A stretch of DNA of 64,000 nt from a virus (lineage: Duplodnaviria > Caudoviricetes): positions 64,001 through 128,000 of the IMG/VR virus record IMGVR_UViG_2912838376_000002, one strand, 5' to 3'. The translations under genes were made by a program, and so were the position numbers. The notes under the pieces were generated by a model, which was not told where the DNA came from, ran no database searches, and saw nothing but the letters and a program-made list of their open reading frames with translations. This document shows, piece by piece, positions 49,600 to 64,000 of the stretch. How positions within the stretch are numbered: the first letter of the stretch is position 1; each line of letters begins with the position of its first letter.

Positions 49600-49612
49600 T
49601 CTAATATAATTC

Positions 49613-49687: not shown

Positions 49688-49696
49688 ATATATAAT

Positions 49697-49770: not shown

Positions 49771-49773
49771 ATG

Positions 49774-49860: not shown

Positions 49861-49874
49861 ATATATAATATGAG

Positions 49875-50179: not shown

Positions 50180-50253
50180 TGCCGATGATAGGACTCGAAC
50201 CTACAACCTCCTGATTACAAGTCAGGCGCACTAGCCAATTGTGCTACACCGGC
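50180..50253 (-). tRNA. tRNA-Thr(TGT)
   Basis: Loop CTTGTAA; no encoded CCA. Confidence 0.92.
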
Positions 50254-50262
50254 ATATAAAAA

Positions 50263-50339
50263 TGGCGAGGGTGACGGGACTCGAACCCGCGACCTCTTGC
50301 GTGACAGGCAAGCGAACACTCCAACTGTTCTACACCCCC
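50263..50339 (-). tRNA. tRNA-Asp(GTC)
   Basis: Loop CTGTCAC; CCA end. Confidence 0.92.
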
Positions 50340-50370
50340 ATAATAGAGGGGCCTAAGCCCCTGTTTGATA

Positions 50371-50916: not shown

Positions 50917-50955
50917 ACTCCTTCTAGTTGTATTAGAAACTTATAAAAGTTCTAA

Positions 50956-51028
50956 CGCCCCTACCAGGATTCGAACCTGGACTCTAAGCTTAGAAGGTTC
51001 ATGTGCTATCCTATTACACCATAGGGGC
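50956..51028 (-). tRNA. tRNA-Arg(TCT)
   Basis: Loop CTTCTAA; imperfect anticodon stem; no CCA. Confidence 0.8.
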
Positions 51029-51057
51029 AAAGTGAAACACCTAAACATAAACAAAAG

Positions 51058-51131
51058 TCCGGATGACACGATTCGAACATGCGACCCCTTGCTCCCAAAG
51101 CAAGTGCTCTACCAAGCTGAGCTACATCCGG
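51058..51131 (-). tRNA. tRNA-Pro(TGG)
   Basis: Loop TTTGGGA; no CCA. Confidence 0.9.
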
Positions 51132-51135
51132 ATGA

Positions 51136-51211
51136 TGGTGGAACTGACAGGACTTGAACCTGCGACATCCTGCGTGCAAGGCAGGCGCTCTCCCAGCTGA
51201 GCTACAATCCC
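51136..51211 (-). tRNA. tRNA-Ala(TGC)
   Basis: Loop CTTGCAC, G3:U70 pair, CCA end. Confidence 0.92.
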
Positions 51212-51215
51212 AAGA

Positions 51216-51289
51216 CGGGTTTTACTAGGATTCGAACCTAGGAATTCTGTGGCCATTCAGTGCACCAACCTCTTCTTGCTTTAAAACCC
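51216..51289 (-). pseudogene. tRNA-like element (intact acceptor and T arm, aberrant D/anticodon arms)
   Basis: GGGTTTT/AAAACCC; CTAGG-TTCGAAT-CCTAG. Confidence 0.65.
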
Positions 51290-51299
51290 ATAATATAAT

Positions 51300-51374
51300 T
51301 GGCTGGGAATGATAGATTCGAACTACCGCATCAGAGAGTCAAAGTCCCTTGCCTTACCGCTTGGCTAATTCCCA
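51300..51374 (-). tRNA. tRNA-Gln(TTG)
   Basis: Loop CTTTGAC; CCA end. Confidence 0.92.
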
Positions 51375-51384
51375 ATATAATAAA

Positions 51385-51458
51385 TGGCTCTTGATTGACT
51401 CGAACAATCGACTTCTACCTTATGAGGGTAGCGCTCTAACCAACTGAGCTAAAGAGCC
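51385..51458 (-). tRNA. tRNA with CAT anticodon (Met elongator or Ile2)
   Basis: Loop CTCATAA; no CCA. Confidence 0.85.
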
Positions 51459-51461
51459 AGG

Positions 51462-51536
51462 CACCGAAGGCAGGAGTCGAACCTACACGCCACCGATTGT
51501 TACATCGTTGAGTCTGCCTGTTGAACTTACTTCGGT
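51462..51536 (-). pseudogene. tRNA-like element with ambiguous anticodon
   Basis: ACCGAAG/CTTCGGT; T arm GTAGG-TTCGACT-CCTGC; anticodon loop is not 7 nt. Confidence 0.65.
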
Positions 51537-51537
51537 A

Positions 51538-51611
51538 TGGTGCTAGAAAGAAAAATCAGAAGAACAACTTCCTCTGAACCAAGAGACGGCTTGGACCCTC
51601 CCGAATCTAGC
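51538..51611 (-). ncRNA. CCA-terminated small RNA with acceptor-like stem but no T loop
   Basis: GCTAGA/TCTAGC + ACCA; inner hairpins CCAAG/CTTGG and TCAGAGGAA/TTCTTCTGA. Confidence 0.55.
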
Positions 51612-51622
51612 ATAATATGAGA

Positions 51623-51696
51623 TGACGTATGCCGGATTCGAACCGGCGAATATCGGATAGAAAGTCCGATGACTTAGGCCTCTTGTCGAATACGCC
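51623..51696 (-). tRNA. tRNA-Glu(TTC), atypical U37
   Basis: Stem TCGGA/TCCGA, loop CTTTCTA; no CCA. Confidence 0.85.
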
Positions 51697-51713
51697 ATGA
51701 AAGATATAATCAC

Positions 51714-51811
51714 AATCCGACACCCATTAGCGAAAGAAAATACCGAATGGGGATTCAGTAACACAAAATATAAAATAAAGGAGTGATTGAATGAGACATG
51801 GATGCCGGATT
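51714..51811 (-). ncRNA. Putative sRNA with anti-Shine-Dalgarno-like segment and CCCC loop
   Basis: 14-bp closing helix with two G-U pairs on the minus strand; CATTCAATCACTCCTTT; hairpin TACTGAAT-CCCC-ATTCGGTA. Confidence 0.55.
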
Positions 51812-51818
51812 CTAATTA

Positions 51819-51896
51819 CGGTTGCTAACGCTCTGGAATCGAACCAGATTTGCAAGGGTTATGAGCCCAAGTGAGATTGCCAACCTCCCGCCAGCT
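51819..51896 (-). tRNA. Atypical initiator-like tRNA-Met(CAT)
   Basis: GGG-CTCATAA-CCC anticodon stem, unpaired position 1, irregular acceptor junction, CCG end. Confidence 0.65.
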
Positions 51897-51909
51897 ATAA
51901 TATATAAGA

Positions 51910-51983
51910 TGGAACTTGTAGGACTCGAACCTACGACCGGACGGTTATGAGCCGTCTGCTCTGACCAACTGAGCTAAAGATCC
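51910..51983 (-). tRNA. tRNA-Ile2(CAT), lysidine type
   Basis: GACGG-CTCATAA-CCGTC, close to Bacillus tRNA-Ile2 as recalled. Confidence 0.8.
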
Positions 51984-51990
51984 ATAAATA

Positions 51991-52062
51991 AGCACCTTAC
52001 GGGAATCGAACCCGTACCGTCTGATTGGAAGTCAGAAATCATAGCCATTAGACCAAAAGTGC
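51991..52062 (-). tRNA. tRNA-Gly(TCC)
   Basis: Loop CTTCCAA; U73. Confidence 0.88.
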
Positions 52063-52068
52063 ATGATA

Positions 52069-52143
52069 AGCAGAAGACAGGATTTGAACCTGCGAGATAA
52101 TTGGGTTGCAGCCAATCGCGTTAAGCCACTTCGCCACATCTGC
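52069..52143 (-). tRNA. tRNA-Cys(GCA)
   Basis: Loop CTGCAAC; U73. Confidence 0.88.
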
Positions 52144-52152
52144 ATAATAAAA

Positions 52153-52334
52153 TGGCGTGCATGGTCGGAATCGAACCGCCCTTCTGGACTATGACCTCCT
52201 GCTCTGATACAGTGGCTTACCATAGTCAATCTCCTCACCAATCTAACCGTAACGACTTATCGTTCATCTATGTTTCAGAATACATAGGGCCCCAATAAGC
52301 TTTCGAGAAAGATTCGTTTCTACCTGAGCTGCAC
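52153..52334 (-). ncRNA. ~182-nt tRNA-like RNA with a large structured insertion
   Basis: 5' GTGCA-GCTCAG-GTAGA; 3' GGCGG-TTCGATT-CCGAC-CATGCAC-G-CCA; several inner hairpins. Confidence 0.65.
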
Positions 52335-52340
52335 ATAATA

Positions 52341-52428
52341 TGGCGGAGGGTGAGGGACTCGAACCCCCATCGGTTTTACCCTACGACAGTTTTCAAGACT
52401 GTTCTCTTACCAATTAGAGTAACCCTCC
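52341..52428 (-). tRNA. tRNA-Ser(TGA)
   Basis: Loop CTTGAAA, long variable arm, CCA end. Confidence 0.9.
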
Positions 52429-52436
52429 ACATTAGA

Positions 52437-52516
52437 TACGGACGGAGAGACTCGAACTCTCACGCCGAAGCACTAGATCCTAAGTCTAGCGTGTCTGCCA
52501 ATTCCACCACGTCCGC
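52437..52516 (-). tRNA. tRNA-Leu(TAG)
   Basis: Loop CTTAGGA, variable arm. Confidence 0.92.
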
Positions 52517-52522
52517 ATAATT

Positions 52523-52597
52523 TGGCTCTGACGGTAGGATTCGAACCTACGACCTTTCGGTTAACAGCCGAGCGCACTACCACTGTGCTACGCCAGA
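52523..52597 (-). tRNA. tRNA-Asn(GTT)
   Basis: Loop CTGTTAA; CCA end. Confidence 0.92.
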
Positions 52598-53904: not shown

Positions 53905-54888
53905 TTAATATCTTGTTAGATTCGCATAAGATAGAGAAACCCAACCATCATGCACTCTCGCCCATCCACCGCTAATATCGTAGATGTTCCATGTGTCTCC
54001 ACTTGAGATAGTACGAATAATATCTCCGTCTGTCGAAGGTTTAGTGCGGACGTTTAAGTTTGCAGTAGTTGTGATTTTTCCGATTGGATTACGTTTTCCT
54101 GCTAAGTCTTCAGGTGTTCCATTAGAAGAACCTCCTGCAGGTGTAAACTTAACATAAGCAGGTCCTGCTGATACCCACTGGTTTCCTCCAACGTTGTACA
54201 TGCCGTTAGATAATCCCCAAGTCTGGTATGTTTCGCCTTTCTTCACAGTTTTAACAACTCTTGAATCAAAGCTAGCAGATTCACGAACGTTTAATTCTGC
54301 AACAAGAATCTCAACAACACCAATACCATCTGTAGAAGGTGGTGGTGTTACTGGCGGCGCTACAGTTGAACCATTAAGTTCAGCTTGTACTGCTGCTAAG
54401 AAACTATTCCATCGTCCTTCATCTAGGATACGGTGCGGACAATTCTTAACTGTTCTAGAATTACCGTTTTTAACACCAATCTCTGTCCAACTCTTATGAG
54501 TACGAACACGATCAATTCCCCATCCGCGCTCTCTTAGTAATTGAGCAACGAATTTAATAGCTAATGCTTCAGCTTTTGTATATCTTGAACCGCCAGATAA
54601 TGAGTAACAGATTTCAACACCGATAGATTTTCGGTTTCCGTTACCACCACCATCACCACAATGCCAAGCATTACGATCAACCGGAATACCTTGAATAACT
54701 TCGATATCATCTACTGCGAAGTGGAATGAAACCTCGTTATTGTTTCCGATCATGTAGTTTACCTCGTTCTTAGCAGGCGCATCATTATAAGTGTTATGCA
54801 CTGTAATGTACTCTGCTTTCATAGAATAAGGACACTTGATTGGGTATTTGCTTGTAGCCACAAGATTTTGTTTAACTGAAATGGCCAT
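53905..54888 (-). CDS. Endolysin: N-acetylmuramoyl-L-alanine amidase (Amidase_2) + two SH3b domains
   Basis: ITVHNT, SFHFAVDD, AWHCGDG, SIGVEIC, KNCPH; two LNVR repeats. Confidence 0.95.
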   Translation of the reverse strand: MAISVKQNLVATSKYPIKCPYSMKAEYITVHNTYNDAPAKNEVNYMIGNNNEVSFHFAVDDIEVIQGIPVDRNAWHCGDGGGNGNRKSIGVEICYSLSGGSRYTKAEALAIKFVAQLLRERGWGIDRVRTHKSWTEIGVKNGNSRTVKNCPHRILDEGRWNSFLAAVQAELNGSTVAPPVTPPPSTDGIGVVEILVAELNVRESASFDSRVVKTVKKGETYQTWGLSNGMYNVGGNQWVSAGPAYVKFTPAGGSSNGTPEDLAGKRNPIGKITTTANLNVRTKPSTDGDIIRTISSGDTWNIYDISGGWARVHDGWVSLSYANLTRY

Positions 54889-54961
54889 AGTCGTACACCT
54901 CCGTATAGATTGGAATGCACGACTAAATTAACCACTTCCTAAATTTGGCTCAAGGTTAAAC

Positions 54962-57526
54962 TTAAGCTACTTTATTGAACTCTCCTAAACGAAGAGAGAT
55001 AACATATCCATGTTGCTCTTGTGTTGCTCCTTCAATGCCTAATAGAGTTGCTGAATGTTGGTTGCCGTCCAACAATAGAGCTTCAGTCATAGGCACTTGC
55101 CCTTGTGCTACAACTGCTCCGTTTTTACCTACCATTGTTACTAGTTTATTTGTTACAGGGCCGTTTCCTAATTGTAACTCACTCTTTAGGTCAATTCGTT
55201 TGCCGACGGATTGTGCCCAAGATTGCGGTGAGTAGCCCGTCGCAAATCGAATAACTGTTTCAGTCTGAGTTAAATTGCCTGCACCGTCTTGTAAATTGCC
55301 CATTACTTGAACGGTTTGTTTTTGCTCAGTTTGTGTATGGATCCCTGTTTCTTTTAGTGTTTGATTAATAACACCTGCAACTAATCCATTTGCCGCTTCT
55401 GTCAACTCTTGACGAGAAGTTGGTAATACTTGCGTTTGATTACGAATTTCTTGAACAGCTCCACCCATATCTTTTGCTTGAGAATGAACTAGTTCTTGAT
55501 ATCCTTGTGTGTAGTTAGTACCTGCAGTAGGATTGATTAATTGTTTCGCTTCTACAGGATTGTATTCTTTATTCATTAACGCTTCCGCAGATACCGTTTC
55601 TTGTGGAGCGTTTACTACTGGTGCATTTTCAACTACTGGAGTTGTTTGAGTTTCTACAGGAGTAGCTTCTGTCTTAACAGCTGCATGTGCATTAGCTAAT
55701 TCTTGTTGTCTCTCAGCATATACTTCTTCATTAATTGGTAAGAAACTTGTTACTTCACGAGCTTCCCCTTCTTTTTCATAAGGGAATAATGCTACTTCTT
55801 CTAATCGATCAAAGACTAAGAATAGTGATTTACGTTGAGTTCCTTGGTCAACTAATAAGTTAACGTCTGTAATACGAGCTAACCATTTAGAATTACGCAT
55901 TGTTTCTTTTGTTAGTGTGTTTGATGCTGTTGCCATTTCAAATACATCATACATTAATGAAACACGTTTCAGTTGTTCTTCTGGACGAGTGAATAATCCT
56001 AAGTGAACAACTTGTCCAACCATTGCTTTAGCAGCTTCTAAGCTAAACATAGATTCTGCCATTGGGTGTAATGGTAATGCAATTTCATTAGTTAAAGGGA
56101 AATCAGATGGGACTTCACCTTTAGTTACTACTTCTACTGATGTTTGTTCAGTTTGTGTTTCTGCTGCAGGTGTTTGAGAAACTGGCGCCGGCTGCACAGT
56201 TTGTTCAATAACACTAGCATCTAATTTAAATTGAGCGTATGTTTTTCCATCTTGCTCTTTCATCGTGTAATCAAGAATAGTAGCCATGTAGTTGTTTGGT
56301 TTAAGAGCTGTTTTCTCGTCAACACCAACTACAACTGTACCGTTAGCATTCTGCGTAAATAATCGAGCTATTCCATCTGCAGAACTAATTCCGTATTTTT
56401 GAGCCATTACAGCTTCTTTTTGATTTGCGAATGTACCAACAAAGCTTGGATGAAGCATGAAACTAGATACGATAAATGGTTTCTCTTCCACTTCTTCTTG
56501 TGTTGTTGGTTCTACTACTTGAACAGGTTTCTCTTTAGCTACAACCTCTTTAGATTCAGCTTCTTTAACGTGTTCTGGAACTTCACCTTTTTCTAAAAGA
56601 TTTGTAACGTTCTTTACAACCCAGTGATCCTTCTCTAATAATTGAAGGTTTTTATATGTAACATTTGTGTAACGAGCACGAGAACGCTTAGTTACTTCTC
56701 CAAATGAAACTACATCACAAGTAATGAATCCATCGTTCTTAAGATGTTTCTGTACATGCTCTGGGAATTGCTCTAACTTAATTGTCTTAGCAATAGCAAC
56801 TACTTCATCATCTAAGCAAAGCATTAACATGAATGAACGCTTCTCGCGGAAGATAACACCACCACGCTCAATGATTTGATTCATGTGTTCTTCTTCTTTA
56901 GCTGTAGAAATAAGACCAAACTCTTCTACATACTCAGTTTCATCTACTGGTGCTTCTACTGTTTTTACTGTTTCTTCCGTTACCGGTTCTACTTTTACTG
57001 TTGGTTCTTCAATTGGTGTGTCGATTGGTAATTCTACTTGCTCAGCTTCTTCTAATTCTGTTTTAGTTTCGCCTTCCATATCTTCAACAGTTTGAATCTC
57101 TTCAGTATTCATGTCAGCTGCTTCGTATTTTACAGCCGCTTCATCTTCTTTAACTTTAAGAAGTTCTTCTGCTAATTTAGATTCTTCTTCTTTAGCTTCT
57201 TGTTCCATTTGTTGATTGTATAGAGCAGCTGCGTTGTTTTGGTCTAGTTCTGCTCCTAATACTGTTTCCTCTGTTACAGGAAGAACAACATCCTCTGTAA
57301 CTGTTTCAACTGGTGCTACTGTTTTTTCTACATCTGGCACTACTACAGTGTTAGATGATAATGCACTTAGGTATTGTTCAATAACTGTTAACATGCGTTG
57401 CTTAACAGCATTGTCCTCTTCGATGTTTACTCGTTTTAATAAGTGATCAAATTCTTGTACGTTCATTAATATTCTCTCCTTTTCATATGAATCGATTTGT
57501 TTTTGAATTGAATTTACTGTTTTCAT
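54962..57526 (-). CDS. Large acidic E/V/T/Q-rich multidomain protein (854 aa)
   Basis: Long ORF with own promoter motif and RBS GAGGAG. Confidence 0.8.
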   Translation of the reverse strand: MKTVNSIQKQIDSYEKERILMNVQEFDHLLKRVNIEEDNAVKQRMLTVIEQYLSALSSNTVVVPDVEKTVAPVETVTEDVVLPVTEETVLGAELDQNNAAALYNQQMEQEAKEEESKLAEELLKVKEDEAAVKYEAADMNTEEIQTVEDMEGETKTELEEAEQVELPIDTPIEEPTVKVEPVTEETVKTVEAPVDETEYVEEFGLISTAKEEEHMNQIIERGGVIFREKRSFMLMLCLDDEVVAIAKTIKLEQFPEHVQKHLKNDGFITCDVVSFGEVTKRSRARYTNVTYKNLQLLEKDHWVVKNVTNLLEKGEVPEHVKEAESKEVVAKEKPVQVVEPTTQEEVEEKPFIVSSFMLHPSFVGTFANQKEAVMAQKYGISSADGIARLFTQNANGTVVVGVDEKTALKPNNYMATILDYTMKEQDGKTYAQFKLDASVIEQTVQPAPVSQTPAAETQTEQTSVEVVTKGEVPSDFPLTNEIALPLHPMAESMFSLEAAKAMVGQVVHLGLFTRPEEQLKRVSLMYDVFEMATASNTLTKETMRNSKWLARITDVNLLVDQGTQRKSLFLVFDRLEEVALFPYEKEGEAREVTSFLPINEEVYAERQQELANAHAAVKTEATPVETQTTPVVENAPVVNAPQETVSAEALMNKEYNPVEAKQLINPTAGTNYTQGYQELVHSQAKDMGGAVQEIRNQTQVLPTSRQELTEAANGLVAGVINQTLKETGIHTQTEQKQTVQVMGNLQDGAGNLTQTETVIRFATGYSPQSWAQSVGKRIDLKSELQLGNGPVTNKLVTMVGKNGAVVAQGQVPMTEALLLDGNQHSATLLGIEGATQEQHGYVISLRLGEFNKVA

Positions 57527-57706
57527 AATCTACTTACTCCTCTCACGATCTGATTGACTTAGATGAACGTAAGCAGTTGTTTCTAAAAATGCAATAACAT
57601 GGGCAATAGTTTTTTTGGCAATAAATTAGGCAAAAGAAAAAGCCCTTCGGCAAAAGGACTCTTTCGTTTAACTAATTAAAAAAAGAGAGGGCGTTAGCCC
57701 TCCCTC

Positions 57707-57817
57707 TTAAGAATGGTTTCTTACTTTTCTTTTACAGGTAATACATACATCAGAATAATAATCTACTTTGTGCTTTTTTCTAAGCTTGCAAATAACTGAC
57801 GTTACCTTTTTACACAT
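57707..57817 (-). CDS. 36-aa basic Cys/His peptide (MCKKVTSVICKLRKKHKVDYYSDVCITCKRKVRNHS)
   Basis: Hand-translated; RBS GGAGG; overlaps the ThiF gene end; followed by a terminator. Confidence 0.55.
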   Translation of the reverse strand: MCKKVTSVICKLRKKHKVDYYSDVCITCKRKVRNHS

Positions 57818-58652
57818 TTTTGGCACCTCCTTCCGTTACTGGTCTAACTGGTAATAATGTAGCTCTTGATGAATGAGTAAGAGCGTTAAAATTTGTATAG
57901 TGATGATATAGTCTTCTTTCTGCAAAGATCTGATTTAGGTATCCCATCGTAATCAATGCAGCCATTTCATTTGATTGCATTCTTTGTGGTTGAGAAACAA
58001 TATTCTGCCCACAACTTTGTGAAGGTAAGAGACTTTCATTGTCTTCTAATATGTCTGGATAAACTCCGGCAACCGGTGCAAGCATCGTATCGTTATGATG
58101 TAATCCAACTACACAATGACCTGCGTATCCTGAACGGATTTTTTCTTCATCTGTTCCTTCAAGTAATACACCGTCAACTCCACAATCTATGTAGATGATG
58201 TTATGGTCTTTCAAAAAGTATTCGTGCATAATTTTTCTCGAAGCATGATTATCAACTGCGCCAATTAATACACGGAACAAAACACGAGAAGAATCAAGAA
58301 CATATGTCTCCTGGTTAGAACGGAAACAATTCGATAATTCTTCAACAGACTCTACATATTCTTCACGATGATAGATAGGAAACTGATAAGACATTCCATA
58401 TCTCTCTGCTAATACCTTCGCTTTATTCTTATCTAAATCTCTAGGTAAGAATGGTTGTCTTTGTAAGTTTTTTTCTTCAACTCTATCTAAATCAACTAAC
58501 GTATAATCAAATGTTGTATGACTTGAATTTTTAGTCAAAGAGGATATTAACTTAGCTAATCGCTGAGTTATATATCCCCCATTTCCTCCACAACCAACTT
58601 GTACAATATCAAAATGCATTGTTCTACTTGGATAAAATTCTAGCGCTCTCAT
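57810..58652 (-). CDS. ThiF/E1-like adenylyltransferase (PRTRC-type)
   Basis: VGCGGNGG, DLDRVEEKNLQRQ, NKAKVLAERY, GAVDN..SR, SQSCG (putative catalytic Cys). Confidence 0.9.
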   Translation of the reverse strand: MRALEFYPSRTMHFDIVQVGCGGNGGYITQRLAKLISSLTKNSSHTTFDYTLVDLDRVEEKNLQRQPFLPRDLDKNKAKVLAERYGMSYQFPIYHREEYVESVEELSNCFRSNQETYVLDSSRVLFRVLIGAVDNHASRKIMHEYFLKDHNIIYIDCGVDGVLLEGTDEEKIRSGYAGHCVVGLHHNDTMLAPVAGVYPDILEDNESLLPSQSCGQNIVSQPQRMQSNEMAALITMGYLNQIFAERRLYHHYTNFNALTHSSRATLLPVRPVTEGGAKNV

Positions 58653-58656
58653 TTAA

Positions 58657-59151
58657 TCACCCATTCTTTGCGCCTTTTACGATAGGCACAATTAGTTTTT
58701 TATCTGCATCAACATCCATATGGCAACGTTCTTTAGAAAGTTCAGGGTAATCTAATTCCAACCATTCACGAACTTGTTCTAAAGTCATATCGTTTTCTGG
58801 TGGATTATATTGCTGTGCAGCATAGGCGATATTCCAAGTTGTATCTACTTTTATATTCTTTTTATCTACTGGCTTAGTAGTCTTCTTATCTTTCCCCTTT
58901 GCCTTGCCTGCTGCTGGTTTCTTTTCTTCCTTATTAACTTGAACTACAGGTGGCTTTTCTTCTTTCACTTGAACGACTACAGGTTGTTCAGTCTGTGCTA
59001 CATTATCAAAAGGGTTGTTACTACTAGGGTTATCAAATAAATTTGTACCTGCTGTTGTTTGAAATAGCCCATCAAATTTTTTAGATTCTGTTGGATCTAA
59101 GAAGTCGTTCTGTGATAAATCAATCTTGAATAAGTCGTTTTTCTCTGTCAT
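58657..59151 (-). CDS. Ubiquitin-like (Prok_Ub / PRTRC protein C-like) domain with disordered N-terminal extension
   Basis: MTLEQVREWL...YPEL and C-terminal KGAKNG. Confidence 0.7.
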   Translation of the reverse strand: MTEKNDLFKIDLSQNDFLDPTESKKFDGLFQTTAGTNLFDNPSSNNPFDNVAQTEQPVVVQVKEEKPPVVQVNKEEKKPAAGKAKGKDKKTTKPVDKKNIKVDTTWNIAYAAQQYNPPENDMTLEQVREWLELDYPELSKERCHMDVDADKKLIVPIVKGAKNG

Positions 59152-59188
59152 ATAAATACCCTCTTCCTATTGAATTAATATTGGCGAT

Positions 59189-59893
59189 CTATTTTACTGG
59201 GAAATACACATTAACGAATCTTTGAACTAAGTCCACTGATGTATAATCTTCTTCGATTAATTTGTCATAATTAAAATGGGGTTGTCCCTGCGTCTCACTA
59301 AAGATTTGTCGCAAAGGCCAACCCCATTTATTTTTATTCTCTAAATTGTAGTAGTGATCTGTGAATGCTGCAGAAAGCCAGTTATGAATAAACGATGACA
59401 TCTGAGCTAAATCCTGCATTTCTGTTAAAAAGAAGAAACACATTTCTCCGTCCTTTTGTACATGCGAGAAAGGAAAACGATACAACTTAGTTGTGTCACG
59501 AAATACTTTATCTCGGAACGCATAACATCTTTTATTCTCAAGAAGATATTTATCTCCATTCGGTCTAAATACAAAAACAAACAATAAGTTTGGAAATGGA
59601 ATTTGCTTATACTTTGTTGAATGATATGTTAAGTTATGTTTGAATTCTTTCTTCTCCATGAATAAAACAATCTTTCCATCTGGTAAAGCCATGTATTTTA
59701 CAGTGCCAGGTGGTAGTGCTGGTGTTTCAAAAACAGGTATATCCAACTTCTTTGTATTTGTTTTTGTTTCATAGCAGTTCTTCTGTACAAATTCAAATAG
59801 TGTGTTGTGGTCTATATGGAATGAGCGCTGTGCTCCGTTCTTCTCGTATTCGACAAGTGGTAATTTTTCGTCTCCAATTGTAATTTTAATCAT
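59189..59893 (-). CDS. Prokaryotic E2 family D-like protein (PRTRC protein B-like)
   Basis: PALPPG, PFPNLLFVF, TKLYRFPFSHVQKDGEMC. Confidence 0.75.
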   Translation of the reverse strand: MIKITIGDEKLPLVEYEKNGAQRSFHIDHNTLFEFVQKNCYETKTNTKKLDIPVFETPALPPGTVKYMALPDGKIVLFMEKKEFKHNLTYHSTKYKQIPFPNLLFVFVFRPNGDKYLLENKRCYAFRDKVFRDTTKLYRFPFSHVQKDGEMCFFFLTEMQDLAQMSSFIHNWLSAAFTDHYYNLENKNKWGWPLRQIFSETQGQPHFNYDKLIEEDYTSVDLVQRFVNVYFPVK

Positions 59894-60449
59894 TTTGTAA
59901 TTCTCTCCCTTCAACTAATGAGTTAATAGAATCGTTGACATCCCTAAGTTCTATTAGGAATTCAATCGTATCGTTTATATCAAGACCTCCATTGTCTTGC
60001 ATGCCTATCATGAAAGTACCAGGTTGGTTTGCGAAAGTAGAATGAACAGGGTCATCGCTACATGCAATTTTAGAATCTGGTAAGTAAACAAACTCAACTA
60101 AATTTCCGCAACTTGTATTTGTAAGTACTTCAATATTTCTTGTGAATTCAATAAAAGTTGGTTGATTCGCATAAGGTAATAATGAAGGAACACGTATAGC
60201 CCCAGCTATATAGTAATTCCATCCGTCTGCAAGCTCTTCAGAAACTTCATGAGGTACATCAATCCAATCAAAATCAAAATCGAATAGGTAAGGTAATGCC
60301 TCTTGCAATTCGTGTATGTATAAATCGCATTCCTCTGAAGTGCATTGTTTTAAGAACTCAATTAATCCATCATCTGTAATGTCATACGCTTTAATTAGAG
60401 TTTGAACGAACAGGTTTCGTTTAGCTTCTAATACGGGAAACTTTAACAT
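59886..60449 (-). CDS. Hypothetical acidic protein in the Ubl operon
   Basis: Overlapping, coupled ORF. Confidence 0.65.
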   Translation of the reverse strand: MLKFPVLEAKRNLFVQTLIKAYDITDDGLIEFLKQCTSEECDLYIHELQEALPYLFDFDFDWIDVPHEVSEELADGWNYYIAGAIRVPSLLPYANQPTFIEFTRNIEVLTNTSCGNLVEFVYLPDSKIACSDDPVHSTFANQPGTFMIGMQDNGGLDINDTIEFLIELRDVNDSINSLVEGRELQND

Positions 60450-61090
60450 GCGTCCACCTGCTTTCTCCTTTGTATTTCATCTACTAATTCTTTATAGAAT
60501 TCATAATATTCTTCAGCAAATTTTGAATAAGCGCCCATAAATCTAGGTCCGAATTCCTCAGTGGTATGGAATTCAAAATCGCACCAAAGTATATACGTAT
60601 ACTCCATATGTTTTTCAAATTGTGTATACCTAGATGAATATCCTCCGAAAAACTGACTTGCAAAATACGTTTCGTAAAATTCTTTAAAACTCATACATAC
60701 GTCACCTAAATTATGAAACATATCATCTATTCGAACCTTTAGTTCAGTTTCCTCAGCTTCTGTAAATAAATGAAGATGATCTAACAATAAACCGAAATGA
60801 AAAATACCAGCTACCTCAATCGGACAATGATCTTGAACATTTCCTTGAATGTTTCCAATACAACGGCCGAAAGCTTCATTGGGATAATCTAAACACGTTG
60901 AACTCGTTAGATTCTCTAATACTTCGGGTATATAATTACAAAAAGACATCTGCTCACCCAAACTAATATAAGTGGGCTCTACAATGTCTCTTGGGTATTC
61001 AACAAAATTATTTATATGTGTTTGAGTTTTAACATAGGAATAATAACGAAGTGTATCTCTGTAGTATCCTGCTTCAAGATTATTAATCAT
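60443..61090 (-). CDS. Hypothetical protein in the Ubl operon
   Basis: Overlapping, coupled ORF. Confidence 0.65.
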   Translation of the reverse strand: MINNLEAGYYRDTLRYYSYVKTQTHINNFVEYPRDIVEPTYISLGEQMSFCNYIPEVLENLTSSTCLDYPNEAFGRCIGNIQGNVQDHCPIEVAGIFHFGLLLDHLHLFTEAEETELKVRIDDMFHNLGDVCMSFKEFYETYFASQFFGGYSSRYTQFEKHMEYTYILWCDFEFHTTEEFGPRFMGAYSKFAEEYYEFYKELVDEIQRRKQVDAC

Positions 61091-61491
61091 ATAAAATCAC
61101 AATCCTCAGCTAAATGTTCTTTTAATTTCGAAGCTTGTTCCTCCACTCCTAAACTCCTACCGAATTCATAATAGTAATCACGGCCATTGCTAGTAGTTGG
61201 TTCTTCAATGAGTTCTTCGAGGTCATGAGAAATGTGCTCACAAGCCATCTCTAATACTTCATGAGATGTTTTGTCTATCATTTCTTGTGGAAGTTCCCCT
61301 TCTGTAAATAAGATCTTATATATAGAAGAAATTTCATCGTATTGCTGTAGCCATTCCGTAGGAGCAGCTTTATCCTGATTACTTTCAAACGTTTCGATAA
61401 GAGCATTTACATTAATTTTATCCGAAGGAATCCTAGTTACAATAACATTGCTTAACTGATTTATTCCATGCAAAGTCGGTTTCATAAACAA
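61087..61491 (-). CDS. Hypothetical protein in the Ubl operon
   Basis: RBS GGAGGG; coupled. Confidence 0.6.
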   Translation of the reverse strand: MFMKPTLHGINQLSNVIVTRIPSDKINVNALIETFESNQDKAAPTEWLQQYDEISSIYKILFTEGELPQEMIDKTSHEVLEMACEHISHDLEELIEEPTTSNGRDYYYEFGRSLGVEEQASKLKEHLAEDCDFI

Positions 61492-61525
61492 CCCTCCAAT
61501 AAAAAATTATTTCTTCCTACTTGTA

Positions 61526-61801
61526 TCAATCTAGTTTTTCTAGATATTCTTTGATCTCTTTTATTAATTGATTCACTTCCTTGGGATGTACTTGTATTTT
61601 TCCATTTACCAATGAAATATTACGTCTTGATATTTTCCCAGTTATAATACAAGCCTCACTATACCGTTGTAGAACAAGCATTTCATTTACTACAGTAAAT
61701 TCTACAGGCACTGCTTGAATTTCCCATACGTTTGCTAATTCTCTAGGAATACCTATACGTCCTTTATTGTCTACATATTGAATAATGCCTGTGAATTTCA
61801 T
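61526..61801 (-). CDS. AbrB-family transition-state regulator
   Basis: MKFTGII..VDNKGRIGIP.EL and C-terminal ACIITG; ATG after GGAGG. Confidence 0.85.
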   Translation of the reverse strand: MKFTGIIQYVDNKGRIGIPRELANVWEIQAVPVEFTVVNEMLVLQRYSEACIITGKISRRNISLVNGKIQVHPKEVNQLIKEIKEYLEKLD

Positions 61802-61820
61802 ACTTCCTCCCGTTAACAAC

Positions 61821-61967
61821 CTAATGTCTTTCTTTATAAATCAATTTTTGAGCAAAGTGCAGTAATTCAATTTCAATATTTTGAGGTCGAACACCCTGGT
61901 CCAACAGCTGGTTTACATGAGTCTCCATTTGTTTTTTTAATGACTCCATTATCTCTTCTGCCTTCAT
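61821..61967 (-). CDS. 48-aa hypothetical protein
   Basis: Hand-translated MKAEEIMESLKKQ...; RBS GGAGG. Confidence 0.55.
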   Translation of the reverse strand: MKAEEIMESLKKQMETHVNQLLDQGVRPQNIEIELLHFAQKLIYKERH

Positions 61968-62063
61968 GATTATTCCTCCTAATTAGAATTCATATCATAT
62001 TAAGCATTTGAAATGAAATTATTCAATTTTATACTTACAAAAAAGAAGACCCTTAGAGTCTTC

Positions 62064-62486
62064 TTAGTGTTCAAGATTTACGATACCTACATAAGATCTA
62101 TCAGCTATAGTTGGTATTACTTTAAGCCCTTGGAAGGTTTCTTCGACTCCGTTGTATTGGATATCGTTATATCTTCTTACATGATGATGGTCGTCACGAT
62201 TAAGAAATATAGCATTCGGATGCATTCGGTGACTACGAACAAAATCATGATACAATCCTGATAGTCTGTTCATAGTATCTCTGCTACGTTCATTTTCTCT
62301 TTCCATAATCATGTACTCCATTATGTTGTCTGGTTCTCTCATGTAAGGAGAACGCAAACTATGATTCACATACGTTGTTTCAAACGGTTGATATGGCTCA
62401 GACAGATACTCCATCTCAAAATATCTCGGTCCTGTATTTACATAAAGTCCCGGAGGAGTAATTTTTAATTCACTAAGCGAAACCAT
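62064..62486 (-). CDS. Hypothetical protein
   Basis: RBS AAGGGTGA; terminator downstream. Confidence 0.6.
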   Translation of the reverse strand: MVSLSELKITPPGLYVNTGPRYFEMEYLSEPYQPFETTYVNHSLRSPYMREPDNIMEYMIMERENERSRDTMNRLSGLYHDFVRSHRMHPNAIFLNRDDHHHVRRYNDIQYNGVEETFQGLKVIPTIADRSYVGIVNLEH

Positions 62487-62847
62487 TTTAAATCACCCTT
62501 TTTAAAATGAGAAGGGGCGTTAGCCCCATCCATTGTTTTGAGAAGAACAATACAAATCTAGTTGAAGATAAATCATATATATATGTTCTTCTATACTCTA
62601 CTCACTCTTTGTTGCTTGATTTGATCTTTGTTGTAAAATAAGCAATTATCTATATAAATTCAAGGGTAATTTCTGGAATTAATATTTTTTTCTAAAAGCG
62701 AACACAAACAAAAAAGCGACCCTATTAACGGATCGCTTGATAATTCATTTACTCGTAGACTTATTATATGTTAAAGAAATTACTCTTGAAGTATTTTAAA
62801 TTAGATTCCCCTAGAATTCAGTTTATTCCACTAAACGTTAAACAGAA

Positions 62848-62997
62848 TTACCAAGTGTCTCCTCTGTTCATATACTGAACATATTCATAAGATTTCTCTT
62901 CAGACAGGTTATTGTTTTCAGTATGCAGTAGACTTAATCCAAATGCGAATGTACCAGTTAATGCAATACTCAATACCAATATTTTTAGTTTTTTCAT
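62848..62997 (-). CDS. phr: Phr-type secreted signalling pre-peptide (…YVQYMNRGDTW)
   Basis: Hand-translated 49 aa with signal peptide; TAATG overlap with the rap stop. Confidence 0.85.
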   Translation of the reverse strand: MKKLKILVLSIALTGTFAFGLSLLHTENNNLSEEKSYEYVQYMNRGDTW

Positions 62998-64000
62998 TAT
63001 TTTAACGCTCCTTTTTCAAAGTATTGTTTTTTAACATTAATACTGCGATGATAATACTCACTTGCTTTAACTGTATTATTTTCGTCATAGTATTTTGTAG
63101 CTAGTTTTTCGGTATATTCTTGCATGCACTCCAATAGGTTTTCTTTCTCAAAATAAGAAAGTCCTTCTTGAACGACTACCTCTAATTCGGCAGCAGGTAC
63201 ATTTTCATTTAACTTCTGTAGGATTCTAAATCTATGTAGATATTCTGCATTGTTTATTTTATGGCAAACATCTAGCCCTCTTTCAATTAATTCTTTAGAT
63301 TGCTCATTATTACCTAACTTATAATTCTCTTCTGCTTCTGAAAATAAAGCTTTGAAATGGTTAGGAATATTAAGAGTAACCTCCGAAAGATGTCTAATTG
63401 CTAAAGCAGACAAGTTTTGGCTCGCATATAACCAGCCTAGATTGCTTCTTACTCGTAGGATTAATTTCTTCTCGTCCATTTTATTTAAAATATTAATAGA
63501 TGAGTTAAAACTTTCTTCGGCTAGTTCGTATTGTTTTAAATCTACACAAGCTAGACCATACACATTTTCACAAGATGCAACATTTATATCATATCCTTTA
63601 TGTTTAGAAAAAATTTCTTTAGCTTTATCTGCATATTTAATGGCTACTAAAGGCTGATACGTCTGATAATTAAAAGTTGAAAATCTATAATAAAACTCTG
63701 CACGTTCTAATATGTCTGGGATATTATCTAACATCTCTTCAGCTTTTAAATAATGCTCTTTTGCTTCAGAAAAATTTGTGAGGACAGTTGAATGTATTGC
63801 TTTGAAGAAATGATAATAGTAATTTAACATTTGATCACTTGGAGCATTTAGCTCTTCAATTCGGTCGAAACTGTCTTTCCCGATTCCAAAATCATCAGTT
63901 AGTAATTTATATCTAAAATCCAATAAAGAATAGTATAGCAATAGATTCTGATCCTGTTCAGCTAAAGCATTAATTTGAGTATCTATCTCTTTTTTTAACT
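62997..64000 (-). CDS. rap: Rap-family TPR regulator/aspartate phosphatase (5' end outside the window)
   Basis: DQNLLLYYSLLDFRY, YYYHFFKA, ERAEFYY, NLGWLYASQNLS; frame open to the window edge. Confidence 0.9.
   Translation of the reverse strand, partial: LKKEIDTQINALAEQDQNLLLYYSLLDFRYKLLTDDFGIGKDSFDRIEELNAPSDQMLNYYYHFFKAIHSTVLTNFSEAKEHYLKAEEMLDNIPDILERAEFYYRFSTFNYQTYQPLVAIKYADKAKEIFSKHKGYDINVASCENVYGLACVDLKQYELAEESFNSSINILNKMDEKKLILRVRSNLGWLYASQNLSALAIRHLSEVTLNIPNHFKALFSEAEENYKLGNNEQSKELIERGLDVCHKINNAEYLHRFRILQKLNENVPAAELEVVVQEGLSYFEKENLLECMQEYTEKLATKYYDENNTVKASEYYHRSINVKKQYFEKGALK

What the first reader, a model, noticed from the sequence alone, without database searches (positions are those of the whole stretch)
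57707..61491. Phage-borne ubiquitin-like conjugation operon (E2-D, Ubl, E1) with no JAB peptidase in view
Seen: an overlapping or closely spaced run of three unknown ORFs, a Prok-E2_D-like protein (FSHVQKDGEMC), a protein ending in a Prok_Ub-like domain with terminal KGAKNG, a ThiF/E1 with putative catalytic Cys (SQSCG) and a 36-aa Cys peptide, closed by a terminator. Established: this resembles the PRTRC modules of mobile elements, whose substrates are unknown; other bacterial E1/E2/Ubl systems (CBASS Cap2, Bil) act in phage conflict. Unusual here: the Ubl carries a ~100-aa disordered N-terminal extension (F/D/N-rich then K-rich) and already ends in Gly, so it needs no JAB processing, and no JAB motif is visible in the operon. 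Inference: a phage tagging system that attaches a disordered tail to host or phage proteins, with the three upstream ORFs as adaptors or substrates.
Basis: partly seen in the sequence, partly recalled or inferred. Interest (0 to 1): 0.78.

Follow-up and report, generated by a model that had tools for sequence, protein, structure and literature searches.

The report
Phage ubiquitin-like tagging operon without peptidase
A large temperate Bacillus phage carries a six-gene operon that looks able to attach a small ubiquitin-like protein with a long floppy tail to other proteins, and that tail bears a short motif resembling the one replication proteins use to grip the DNA sliding clamp.

Summary
On the minus strand of 57707-61491 lie three unknown ORFs, a Prok-E2_D-type E2 (invariant Cys159/His187), a 164-aa protein whose last 65 residues fold as a beta-grasp and end in an invariant Gly, and a ThiF-type E1 (invariant Cys214), closed by two terminators. 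The 39-aa Cys ORF is not conserved and is probably not a gene. The window is part of a 245-kb virus record, 94% identical to the B. thuringiensis plasmid-prophage pBtic235. The operon has no JAB. The same genome carries a second, paralogous module 30 kb away (poly-Ubl, E2, JAB, E1), and a complete related phage carries only the JAB-less type. The disordered N-terminal extension is a family trait, not an oddity. Of the 150 best relatives, 62 are extension-plus-Ubl ending at the C-terminus, and 49 continue past the Ubl domain (21 of 27 longer relatives scanned have a Prok-JAB domain). The extensions carry a strongly enriched [DS]LF / QL[DS]LF motif, the consensus of bacterial sliding-clamp-binding motifs. 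Best reading: a divergent, JAB-less PRTRC-like conjugation module. Targets are unknown and conjugation is untested. I rate it a new variant of a known kind.

The parts
61821..61967 (-). 48-aa ORF, probable first gene of the transcription unit
   Evidence: ORF. Annotated in pBtic235. A terminator-like hairpin at 62065-62043 precedes it and none lies between it and orfA. In pBtic235 it is induced by mitomycin C, log2FC +3.8.
61526..61819 (-). AbrB-like regulator immediately upstream of orfA (34-nt gap)
   Evidence: Pfam AbrB_C 39.6 bits, cut-off 22.8. PHROG 4681. log2FC +4.1 in pBtic235.
61087..61491 (-). orfA, 134 aa, acidic, unknown family; conserved system component
   Evidence: No family hit. 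Syntenic in pAD3 and the Cytobacillus plasmid, with 53 of 134 columns invariant including a C-terminal ED[CS]DFI tail.
60443..61090 (-). orfB, 215 aa, unknown family; conserved system component
   Evidence: No Pfam, NCBIfam or PHROG hit; no usable Atlas hit. Homologues at 42% and 32% identity in the same gene order in two other plasmid-prophages.
59886..60449 (-). orfC, 187 aa, acidic, unknown family with strongly conserved EFTR / YLPDS / QDNG motifs
   Evidence: 11 homologues at 41-91% identity, on contigs of about 233-238 kb, with locus tags adjacent to the E2 gene. Alignment. Unrelated to the small ORFs of the distant L008/L009 loci (hhalign probability below 1%).
59189..59893 (-). E2-like protein (Prok-E2_D); the ORF can be read from TTG 59914 but the start is probably Met8
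   Evidence: Pfam PF14460 25.2 bits, cut-off 25. TIGR03737 E = 0.005. Cys159 (59438-59440), His98 and Asp186-His187 invariant in 17 of 17. AF2 pLDDT 80. The top 26 VIA-align rows are all UBC/E2 enzymes, Z 4.2-5.5.
58855..59151 (-). Disordered N-terminal extension of the Ubl (residues 1-99): acidic Phe-motif half (NDLF, DGLF, TNLF, NPF; pI 4.1), then Lys-rich half (13 Lys in 47 residues; pI 9.8)
   Evidence: pLDDT 38-57. Variable in alignment A1 apart from the motifs. Composition. Motif enrichment across the family.
58660..58854 (-). Ubiquitin-like beta-grasp domain (residues 100-164) ending in Gly164, followed by the stop codon 58657-58659
   Evidence: pLDDT about 87, beta-beta-alpha-beta-beta. 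The 50 best VIA-align rows are nearly all ubiquitin, SUMO, ISG15, MoaD and other beta-grasp domains, Z 4.5-6.1 over 50-61 residues. Gly160, Lys162 and Gly164 invariant. hhalign to the poly-Ubl repeats gives probability 86%.
57810..58652 (-). E1-like ThiF-family adenylyltransferase
   Evidence: Pfam ThiF 35.9 bits. TIGR03736 PRTRC_ThiF 75.9 bits, below the cut-off of 144.75. The GxGGxGGY, RQ, VDN and Cys214 (58011-58013) positions are invariant in 6 of 6 E1s.
57707..57826 (-). 39-aa Cys-rich ORF; probably not a gene
   Evidence: Frame broken by 1-nt and 4-nt indels in close relatives. Not annotated in pBtic235. No family hit.
57636..57708 (-). Two tandem intrinsic-terminator-like hairpins closing the operon
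   Evidence: 12-bp and 13-bp stems followed by T runs. RNA-library contigs of 2 of 4 runs end here.

Best explanation
This is a JAB-less, divergent PRTRC-like (Iyer 2006 operon type 6d) ubiquitin-like conjugation module of a temperate jumbo Bacillus phage of the pBtic235 family.

Proposed mechanism:
1. The Ubl is translated in mature form, with Gly164 as its last residue.
2. The E1 adenylates Gly164 and takes it as a thioester on Cys214.
3. The Ubl passes to Cys159 of the E2.
4. It is then joined by an isopeptide bond to lysines of target proteins, or to the Ubl's own Lys-rich linker.

The tag carries about 100 disordered residues: an acidic part with conserved [DS]LF-type docking motifs and a basic Lys-rich part. 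Whatever is tagged therefore acquires a docking handle, most plausibly for the host beta sliding clamp (see the section on the most novel reading). orfA, orfB and orfC are co-translated, conserved accessory components, perhaps for specificity or ligase-like functions.

Shown here: the identities and folds of E1, E2 and Ubl, the invariant catalytic-type residues, the exposed Gly, the operon structure, and conservation across phage-plasmids.

Inferred: every chemical step, the targets, and the role of the extension and of orfA-C.
For: - E1: ThiF over the Pfam cut-off and best NCBIfam hit PRTRC_ThiF, with the nucleotide-binding and Cys positions invariant.
- E2: Prok-E2_D at the cut-off. It has an invariant Cys with a downstream invariant His, as Iyer et al. 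describe for type 6d (PMC1779556, passages read). The UBC fold fills the top 26 structural rows.
- Ubl: confident beta-grasp model with ubiquitin-family structural matches. The terminal Gly is invariant in 20 of 20. Sub-threshold ThiS hits occur in 15 of 20 members and Prok_Ub hits in 8 of 20. It is homologous to the poly-Ubl repeats of the second module.
- Operon: overlapping or closely spaced genes with ribosome-binding sites. Terminators lie only at the end.
- Conservation: the gene order orfA-orfB-orfC-E2-Ubl-E1 is kept in B. velezensis pAD3 and a Cytobacillus oceanisediminis plasmid at 32-42% orfB identity.
- The core E1/E2/extension-Ubl set is kept in distant loci L008 and L009. L008 lies in a complete phage (G001) that has one PRTRC-type E1 and, as its only JAB-like hit, a RadC-like protein.
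- In the wider family the same Ubl domain is fused to Prok-JAB in 21 of 27 longer proteins scanned. This ties the family to conjugation and deconjugation chemistry.
Against: - No biochemical datum exists for this or any PRTRC-like system. Literature searches found no functional study.
- Family scores are marginal or sub-threshold: E2 25.2 against 25; PRTRC_ThiF 75.9 against 144.75; PRTRC_B 16.3 against 131; Prok_Ub 12.6 against 25.
- Structural Z-scores are modest (at most 6.1) and Foldseek gave nothing significant.
- In the pBtic235 RNA-seq tables, orfA-C are induced by mitomycin C (+3.8, +2.0, +3.1, with large errors). The E2, Ubl and E1 genes appear in none of the lists of significantly changed genes.
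- No E3, no target and no deconjugating enzyme is evident in the operon.
Confidence: 0.6

Rival explanations
1. A prophage-carried anti-phage defence or superinfection-exclusion system that works like Bil. It would be expressed in the lysogen and conjugate the Ubl to structural proteins of incoming phages.
For: - The E1 gives weak PADLOC hits to CBASS-type E1-E2 models, best E = 3e-6.
- The neighbourhood is rich in lysogeny and accessory genes: Rap/Phr, an AbrB paralogue, a two-component system and an Apyc1-like gene.
- In relatives an AIPR-family gene lies upstream.
- E2, Ubl and E1 are not among the mitomycin-induced genes, although the paper reports 240 pBtic235 genes changed. This would fit constitutive lysogenic expression.
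- From my own recall, not from a call: the Bil and Cap2 systems act in defence.
Against: - No PADLOC model matches the E2, the Ubl or orfA-C.
- The PADLOC hits cover only the Rossmann part of the E1.
- The upstream genes of the same operon are induced together with the lytic genes.
- Absence from a list of significant genes may simply mean low counts.
Confidence: 0.15
2. A sulfur-carrier pathway of the ThiS/MoaD/TtuB type. The E1 would adenylate the Gly, the Ubl would become a thiocarboxylate, and it would donate sulfur to a nucleotide, tRNA or DNA modification.
For: - One source names a homologue a MoaD/ThiS family protein.
- ThiS is the commonest weak Pfam hit, 15 of 20 members.
- In the Cytobacillus plasmid a PAPS-reductase-family gene follows the E1.
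Against: - An E2-like protein with an invariant Cys is part of every locus.
- The E1 has no rhodanese or other sulfurtransferase domain.
- There is no PAPS-reductase-family gene anywhere in this 245-kb genome.
- The closest wider relatives are Ubl-JAB fusions and poly-Ubls, architectures typical of conjugation systems.
Confidence: 0.07
3. A decaying duplicate of the phage's complete poly-Ubl/E2/JAB/E1 module that no longer does anything.
For: - A full paralogous module lies in the same genome.
- E2, Ubl and E1 are not significantly regulated in the RNA-seq tables.
Against: - All frames are intact.
- Catalytic-type residues and the terminal Gly are invariant over homologues down to 33-35% identity.
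- A complete phage, G001, has this module only.
- The two modules are only 26-29% identical, so they are ancient paralogues rather than a recent copy.
Confidence: 0.04

Closest known systems
PRTRC system (NCBIfam TIGR03735-TIGR03742), which is operon type 6d of Iyer, Burroughs and Aravind 2006 (PMC1779556)
   Same: - ThiF-type E1 whose best family hit is PRTRC_ThiF.
- E2-like protein of Pfam family Prok-E2_D with a catalytic-type Cys and a downstream conserved His.
- Small beta-grasp protein ending in Gly.
- Carried on mobile elements.
- No known function.
   Different: - All curated NCBIfam cut-offs are missed.
- The operon has no JAB (protein A), no ParB-like gene and no protein E or F. Three unrelated acidic proteins, orfA-C, stand in their place.
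- The Ubl carries a 100-residue disordered extension.
- The host element is a tailed phage of Bacillota.
The second module of the same phage (G000 about 154-160 kb), shared with the Bacillus jumbo phages vB_BceM_WH1 and vB_BauM_KLEB27-3
   Same: - Paralogous E1 (29% identity).
- Paralogous E2 (26% identity over 58 residues).
- Homologous Ubl domain with the YPEL and G-x-K-G end motifs.
   Different: - Its Ubl is a poly-protein of 4-5 head-to-tail repeats with a C-terminal cap, so it must be cut after each Gly.
- It has a 396-aa JAB protein with an intact HxH...S..D motif.
- Its accessory proteins (115 and 526 aa) are unrelated to orfA-C.
Ubl-JAB fusion proteins of Bacillota plasmids, named PRTRC protein A or Mov34/MPN/PAD-1 by sources (for example in Alicyclobacillus)
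   Same: - The same Ubl domain, E down to 1e-17.
- The same kind of N-terminal extension, with the LF motif and a Lys-rich linker.
   Different: There the reading frame continues into a Prok-JAB domain after the Gly. Here the gene stops at the Gly and no JAB is present in the operon.
Bil, Bub and CBASS Cap2/Cap3 bacterial E1/E2/Ubl pathways
   Same: - E1-E2-Ubl logic.
- The legend to Figure 1 of PMC11601603 notes that some single-domain Ubls of Bub/Bil operons also have disordered N-terminal regions (passage read).
   Different: - A different E2 family.
- No CD-NTase.
- No Bil or Bub protein models matched beyond a partial E1 Rossmann hit.
- The Bub E2 and the CdnG-E2 appear only at Z 3.4-3.5 in the fold list.
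- This system is phage-encoded, not host-encoded.

Membership tests
PRTRC system (TIGR03735-03742; Iyer 2006 type 6d) | E1 scoring as PRTRC_ThiF (TIGR03736) above its curated cut-off | tested here: not met
   It is the best NCBIfam hit, but at 75.9 bits against a cut-off of 144.75.
PRTRC system (TIGR03735-03742; Iyer 2006 type 6d) | E2-like protein B (Prok-E2_D) with a conserved Cys and a conserved His downstream of it | tested here: met
   Pfam PF14460 25.2 bits against 25. Cys159 and His187 invariant in 17 of 17. TIGR03737 itself reaches only 16.3 bits against 131.
PRTRC system (TIGR03735-03742; Iyer 2006 type 6d) | Small Ubl (protein C / Prok_Ub) with a conserved C-terminal Gly | tested here: inconclusive
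   The beta-grasp fold and invariant terminal Gly are met. Prok_Ub reaches only 12.6 bits against 25 for this protein, and 8 of 20 homologues give weak hits. The protein is 164 aa, not about 70.
PRTRC system (TIGR03735-03742; Iyer 2006 type 6d) | JAB peptidase (protein A) encoded in the cassette | tested here: not met
   No JAB hit in any ORF of 57707-61967. The only Prok-JAB gene of the genome is about 30 kb away in the paralogous module.
PRTRC system (TIGR03735-03742; Iyer 2006 type 6d) | ParB-related protein and proteins E and F in the cassette | tested here: not met
   Pfam and NCBIfam scans of all operon ORFs gave no such hit at E <= 0.1.
Ubiquitin-like protein modifiers | Beta-grasp fold with a flexible tail ending in an exposed Gly, encoded next to its E1 | tested here: met
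   A 4-nt gap separates it from the E1 gene.
Ubiquitin-like protein modifiers | Forms a thioester with E1 and E2 and an isopeptide bond with targets | not testable with these tools
   This needs biochemistry.
E2/UBC superfamily | UBC fold with a catalytic Cys | tested here: met
   Model pLDDT 80. The top 26 VIA-align rows are all E2 enzymes, Z 4.2-5.5, with 105-131 residues aligned. Cys159 is invariant. Whether Cys159 superposes on the UBC catalytic Cys was not checked.
CBASS Cap2 / Bil / Bub defence-type Ubl pathways | Match to the systems' own protein models and partner genes (CD-NTase, Bil or Bub components) | tested here: not met
   PADLOC gives only partial E1-E2 model hits on E1 residues 15-109 (best E = 3e-6) and nothing for E2, Ubl or orfA-C.
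ThiS/MoaD sulfur carriers | Partner sulfurtransferase or biosynthetic enzymes, and no E2 | tested here: not met
   An E2 is present in every locus. No rhodanese domain. No PAPS-reductase-family gene in the genome.
Beta-sliding-clamp-binding proteins | Clamp-binding motif QL[S/D]LF or QxxLF in a disordered or terminal segment (consensus quoted from PMC12309361) | tested here: inconclusive
   The window protein has KNDLF at residues 3-7, so positions 4 and 5 are met and Gln1 is not. The positionally homologous motif is QLDLF in the Cytobacillus operon. Across the family, Q..[LIM]F occurs in 30 of 90 extensions against 0.88 expected. Binding could not be modelled.

The most novel reading that the evidence does not exclude
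The extension-Ubl is a covalently attachable sliding-clamp handle. Its N-terminal QL[DS]LF-type motif (degenerate KNDLF in this phage) docks in the hydrophobic pocket of the host DnaN clamp. The Lys-rich linker lies along DNA. The E1/E2 pair then ligates the C-terminal Gly either to clamp-associated replisome proteins or the clamp itself, or to phage proteins that thereby gain clamp access. That would be a bacterial and phage counterpart of PCNA-centred ubiquitin/SUMO signalling. It would also give PRTRC-like cassettes, which sit beside ParB and replication genes on plasmids, their first proposed function: control of replication of the mobile element or of the host. The phage encodes DnaB-like helicase, RecA and SSB in this window, and a DnaE is annotated in pBtic235. 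No clamp gene was found in its 245 kb.
Probability: 0.25. Interest if true: 0.9.

Novelty: new variant of a known kind. Interest (0 to 1): 0.7.

Why it matters
PRTRC-type E1/E2/Ubl cassettes were predicted in 2006 and still have no known substrate or role. Here a compact, JAB-less version sits in a phage family whose member pBtic235 is inducible, forms plaques, and already has RNA-seq data and mutants in a laboratory B. thuringiensis strain (PMC9700832). The question is therefore directly testable.

The same phage carries two paralogous Ubl systems. One needs a peptidase (poly-Ubl) and one does not (pre-matured Ubl), which gives a natural experiment on what the JAB is for.

The conserved clamp-binding-like motif gives a concrete first hypothesis for targets. 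If it holds, Ubl conjugation would be linked to the replisome in bacteria and their viruses.

Tried and rejected
- **Foldseek against PDB:** no match at E <= 0.001 for either model. Only the wide VIA-align search was informative.
- **Sequence search of PDB:** E1 alone and the E2 profile gave 0 hits.
- **ESM Atlas:** no usable hit for orfB or orfC.
- **PHROGs:** nothing for the operon except one weak unknown-function hit for orfC.
- **Megablast of the operon against phage records:** no match.
- **Collection scans with the E2 profile:**
  - Genome contigs returned only one unrelated short match, L010.
  - Metagenome contigs returned 2 loci: one fragment of the same phage type, and L025.
- **orfA, orfB and orfC against the two small ORFs between E1 and E2 in L008/L009:** hhalign probabilities of 0.2-0.4%, so the accessory genes of the two clades are not detectably related.
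- **The 39-aa Cys ORF as a zinc-ribbon partner:** rejected because frameshifting indels break it in close relatives.
- **Clamp-docking prediction:** The clamp idea therefore has no modelling test.
- **RNA-library contigs:** 4 runs from one study cover every bin of 54800-62600. Contigs cannot show transcription or level, so this is not used as evidence of expression.
- **RadC-like JAB of G001:** the 154-aa protein was considered as a trans-acting peptidase. It lies far from the module and belongs to a different JAB subgroup by its motif. Not pursued.
- **Literature:** no paper in the held library links PRTRC, Prok-E2, pBtic235 or DnaN to a phage Ubl system. No paper was found on phages WH1 or KLEB27-3.

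Full report
**What is there**

Seven ORFs run head to tail on the minus strand between 61491 and 57707.

| ORF | Coordinates | Size |
|---|---|---|
| orfA | 61491-61087 | 134 aa |
| orfB | 61090-60443 | 215 aa |
| orfC | 60449-59886 | 187 aa |
| E2-like | 59914-59189 | 241 aa |
| Ubl-like | 59151-58657 | 164 aa |
| E1-like | 58652-57810 | 280 aa |
| Cys-rich ORF | 57826-57707 | 39 aa |

- orfA/orfB and orfB/orfC overlap by 4 and 7 nt. The Ubl-to-E1 gap is 4 nt.
- Homologues of the E2 start at its Met8, which has a good ribosome-binding site, so the E2 gene is probably 59893-59189.
- Two terminator-like hairpins (57708-57681 and 57665-57636) close the unit.
- The nearest upstream terminator-like site is at 62065-62043. 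A 48-aa ORF and an AbrB paralogue (61967-61526) probably belong to the same transcript.

**The replicon**

- The window is bases 64001-128000 of a 244,829-bp IMG/VR virus record that CheckV rates complete.
- The rest of the window encodes DnaB-like helicase, RecA, SSB, UvrD, SNF2, thymidylate synthase, DHFR, dUTPase, kinases, an endolysin and 18 tRNAs.
- The operon region is 93.8% identical over its full length to eight 235-kb plasmids of B. thuringiensis, among them NC_018509.1 and NZ_CP051859.1. NZ_CP051859.1 is the record listed as pBtic235 in the RNA-seq tables.
- In PMC9700832 (passages read), pBtic235 is a mitomycin-inducible, plaque-forming tailed jumbo phage kept as a circular plasmid.
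- In RefSeq the operon genes are "hypothetical" apart from the ThiF gene, and the 39-aa ORF is not annotated.

**E1**

- Pfam ThiF scores 35.9 bits (cut-off 28.1).
- The best NCBIfam hit is PRTRC_ThiF, at 75.9 bits and E = 3e-21, below the cut-off of 144.75.
- I aligned it with two distant module-1 E1s and three module-2 E1s. The GxGGxGGY loop, the RQ and VDN motifs, and the cysteine of SQSCG (Cys214) are invariant in 6 of 6.
- No solved structure is related by sequence.

**E2**

- Pfam Prok-E2_D scores 25.2 bits against a cut-off of 25. PRTRC_B gives E = 0.005.
- 26 homologues at 35-99% identity were found, several on contigs of 186-247 kb from Bacillus, Cytobacillus and Priestia.
- In 17 aligned sequences, Cys159, His98 and Asp186-His187 are invariant.
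- Iyer et al. describe the E2 of their operon type 6d as lacking the classical His but having an absolutely conserved His downstream of the Cys (PMC1779556, passages read). This protein fits that description.
- The AlphaFold2 model has mean pLDDT 80.
- Foldseek found nothing significant.
- The alignment against 48,161 PDB representatives put E2/UBC enzymes in all of the top 26 rows: Z 4.2-5.5, 105-131 residues aligned, model residues about 64-226.
- The Z values are modest. The uniformity of the list is what supports the fold.

**Ubl**

- No family passes any threshold for this protein. ThiS and Prok_Ub both give E = 0.12.
- Among 20 homologues scanned singly, 15 hit ThiS (best E = 4.4e-4) and 8 hit Prok_Ub (best E = 0.0059). 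All are below the cut-offs.
- The alignment of 20 homologues at 33-98% identity shows a variable N-terminal 90-130 residues and a conserved last 65 residues. Gly160, Lys162 and the terminal Gly164 are invariant.
- In the AlphaFold2 model, residues 100-164 have pLDDT about 87 with beta-beta-alpha-beta-beta order. Residues 1-99 score 38-57.
- The wide structural search aligned residues 103-164. Its 50 best rows are nearly all ubiquitin, SUMO, ISG15, FUBI, UBX, PB1, MoaD and similar beta-grasp domains, with Z 4.5-6.1.

**The Cys ORF**

Over the 300 bases around the E1 stop, pBtic235 and two IMG/VR relatives are 91% identical to the window. They carry a 1-nt and a 4-nt deletion inside this ORF, and an earlier E1 stop. 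The ORF is not conserved as a reading frame and I do not count it as a gene.

**A JAB after all, in a second module**

A scan of the whole genome for Prok-JAB found one match (29.3 bits), about 30 kb from the operon. It belongs to a second cluster on the same strand:

- A 249-aa protein made of four 55-residue Ubl repeats. Each repeat ends A-G-T-K-G, and a 17-residue cap follows the last.
- Two unknown proteins of 115 and 526 aa.
- A Prok-E2_D protein (29.0 bits).
- A 396-aa JAB protein (Prok-JAB 26.9 bits; PRTRC_A E = 5e-7) with an intact HxH...S..D motif.
- A PRTRC_ThiF-like E1 (92.8 bits).

This is the arrangement found in the Bacillus jumbo phages vB_BceM_WH1 and vB_BauM_KLEB27-3, which have five and four repeats.

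The two modules are old paralogues:
- The E1s are 29% identical.
- The E2s are 26% identical over 58 residues.
- The Ubl domain of the finding matches the repeat profile with hhalign probability 86%, E = 4.9e-6 over 34 columns.

The logic is coherent. The poly-Ubl must be cut after each Gly and comes with a peptidase. The Ubl of the finding is made with its Gly free and comes without one.

**The JAB-less module stands alone elsewhere**

- Locus L008 lies in a 215,870-bp virus record with terminal repeats that is rated complete (G001). The order there is E1, two small ORFs, E2, extension-Ubl.
- That record has one PRTRC_ThiF-like E1. Its only JAB-like hit (15.8 bits) is a 154-aa RadC-type protein far from the module.
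- L009 has the same order.
- Phage WH1 has only the poly-Ubl module. pBtic235 has both.

**orfA-C**

- None has a family hit or an Atlas neighbour.
- They are nonetheless conserved. orfC has 11 homologues at 41-91% identity whose locus tags adjoin the E2 gene.
- The order orfA-orfB-orfC-E2-Ubl-E1 recurs in B. velezensis plasmid pAD3 (220 kb) and a Cytobacillus oceanisediminis plasmid (240 kb). orfB identities there are 42% and 32%.
- Invariant columns are 53 of 134 for orfA, 47 of 222 for orfB and 39 of 210 for orfC.
- They are not detectably related to the two small ORFs of L008/L009.
- I take them as clade-specific components of unknown role.

**How unusual is the extension?**

A profile of the 65-residue domain (window, L008, L009) was run against 1.84 billion representatives. 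It found 205 proteins at E <= 1e-3 and 79 at E <= 1e-10. I sorted the 150 listed by the position of the match:

| Class | Count |
|---|---|
| N-extension of 30 residues or more, Ubl within 3 residues of the C-terminus | 62 (45 end exactly in Gly) |
| Continue for more than 100 residues after the domain | 49 |
| Continue for 4-100 residues after the domain | 16 |
| Three or more matched stretches (poly-Ubl-like) | 8 |
| Short fragments | 5 |
| Partial matches | 10 |

- I scanned 27 of the longer ones against Pfam. Of these, 24 have more than 100 residues after the domain and 3 have long N-extensions. 21 have Prok-JAB at E <= 1e-3, and 14 of those exceed the cut-off.
- One such cluster is named PRTRC system protein A or Mov34/MPN/PAD-1 in Alicyclobacillus plasmids.
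- A metagenome locus shows E2, then one 553-aa protein (extension, three Ubl-like units, JAB), then E1.

The extension is therefore the rule in this family. What distinguishes the finding is that the frame stops at the Gly and the cassette has no JAB. Single-domain Ubls with disordered N-termini are also mentioned for Bub/Bil operons (figure legend of PMC11601603).

**A motif in the extension**

- The window protein has NDLF at residues 5-8, then DGLF, TNLF and NPF in an acidic stretch (pI 4.1). A Lys-rich stretch follows (13 Lys in 47 residues, pI 9.8).
- In the distant clade, the only invariant residues inside the extension besides two Glu are the L-F of QLDLF or QLALF.
- For a family-wide count I took 91 of the 150 hits: single-stretch matches beginning within about the first 10 profile positions. 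I dropped 59 (partial, multi-stretch or fragmentary). Of the 91, 90 had extensions of 30 residues or more.

| Motif | Observed (of 90) | Composition-preserving shuffles |
|---|---|---|
| [DNSGAE][LM]F | 66 | 5.3 expected |
| Same motif within the first 30 residues | 41 | 2.0 expected |
| Q[LIMV].[LIM]F | 20 | mean 0.13, maximum 2 |
| Q..[LIM]F | 30 | mean 0.88 |
| Exact QL[SD]LF | 9 | mean 0.00 |

- PMC12309361 (introduction read) gives QL[S/D]LF, more generally QxxLF, as the commonest bacterial clamp-binding motif. Positions 1, 4 and 5 are the most important. B. subtilis PolC has QLSLF and DnaE has QMGLF.
- In the six-gene operon of the Cytobacillus plasmid, the Ubl begins with QLDLF exactly where this phage has KNDLF. 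The window's motif is thus a Gln-less variant of the same element.
- The sequences are homologous, so the counts show conservation of a short motif inside otherwise unalignable sequence. They are not independent events.
- The genome has no DnaN-family hit.
- I could not model the complex.
- The motif could instead dock on the system's own enzymes.

**Expression**

In supplementary file 1 of PMC9700832 (part 17 read), 30 minutes after mitomycin C:

| pBtic235 gene | log2 fold change |
|---|---|
| Homologue of the 48-aa ORF | +3.8 |
| AbrB paralogue | +4.1 |
| orfA | +3.8 |
| orfB | +2.0 (standard errors for orfA-C 0.5-1.0) |
| orfC | +3.1 |
| 854-aa downstream gene | +4.6 |
| Module-2 E1 | +4.0 |

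- The locus tags of the module-1 E2, Ubl and E1 occur in none of the six supplementary files. Those files list only significant genes. Either the three genes are weakly expressed at these times or they are not DNA-damage-responsive.
- RNA-library contigs of four runs from one study cover the whole operon. In two runs the contigs break at the terminators. Contigs do not show transcription.

**Reading**

- Best reading: a real, JAB-less, PRTRC-like E1-E2-Ubl conjugation module of a temperate jumbo phage. Its tag brings a disordered docking handle (confidence 0.6).
- Rivals: a Bil-like prophage defence (0.15), a sulfur-carrier pathway (0.07), and a decaying duplicate (0.04).
- Most novel reading not excluded: the tag is a covalently attachable sliding-clamp handle (0.25).
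- No paper in the held library describes any of this.
- I file it as a new variant of a known kind, because four of the defining PRTRC features were tested and not met.

Noticed in passing
G000 contig about 154,000-160,000 (outside the window; L005:8063-13958, minus strand): A second, paralogous Ubl module in the same phage. It comprises a poly-Ubl of four repeats each ending AGTKG plus a 17-residue cap, proteins of 115 and 526 aa, a Prok-E2_D protein, a 396-aa JAB and an E1, followed by an RNase H-like gene. The Bacillus jumbo phages WH1 and KLEB27-3 share this module. In WH1 the poly-Ubl is annotated as a virion structural protein.
   Followed up: yes
window 61087-61491 (orfA C-terminus): orfA ends in an invariant acidic-hydrophobic tail, ED[CS]DFI, in all three aligned homologues. 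From my own recall it resembles the acidic C-terminal tip of bacterial SSB. Not tested.
   Followed up: no
window 54962-57526: An 854-aa, very acidic protein with no family hit lies directly after the operon. It keeps this position in pAD3 and the Cytobacillus plasmid. It is strongly mitomycin-induced in pBtic235, log2FC +4.6. It is a candidate substrate or simply a backbone gene.
   Followed up: partly
window 49384-52597: A cluster of 18 tRNA genes on the minus strand, including three tRNA-Met. This explains the local G+C peak of 0.44.
   Followed up: no
window 18098-18829: A metallo-beta-lactamase-fold protein matches Pfam Anti-Pycsar Apyc1 just over the cut-off, 51.8 against 50 bits. It is a possible counter-defence nuclease for cyclic nucleotides.
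   Followed up: no
window 21997-25698: Two histidine-kinase genes and an OmpR-type response regulator lie in a row inside the phage genome.
   Followed up: no
window 62848-63998: A Rap-like TPR protein is followed by a 49-aa ORF. pBtic235 annotation calls that ORF a Phr-family secreted Rap-phosphatase inhibitor. The Rap homologue is slightly repressed by mitomycin C, log2FC -0.63.
   Followed up: partly
L025:5737-8952 (metagenome contig): A compact relative: E2, then a single 553-aa protein (N-terminal NLF motif, Lys-rich linker, three Ubl-like units and a JAB), then E1.
   Followed up: partly
L027:8363-9286 (Cytobacillus oceanisediminis plasmid): A PAPS-reductase-family gene directly follows the E1 in this relative only. 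No such gene exists in the window's genome.
   Followed up: partly
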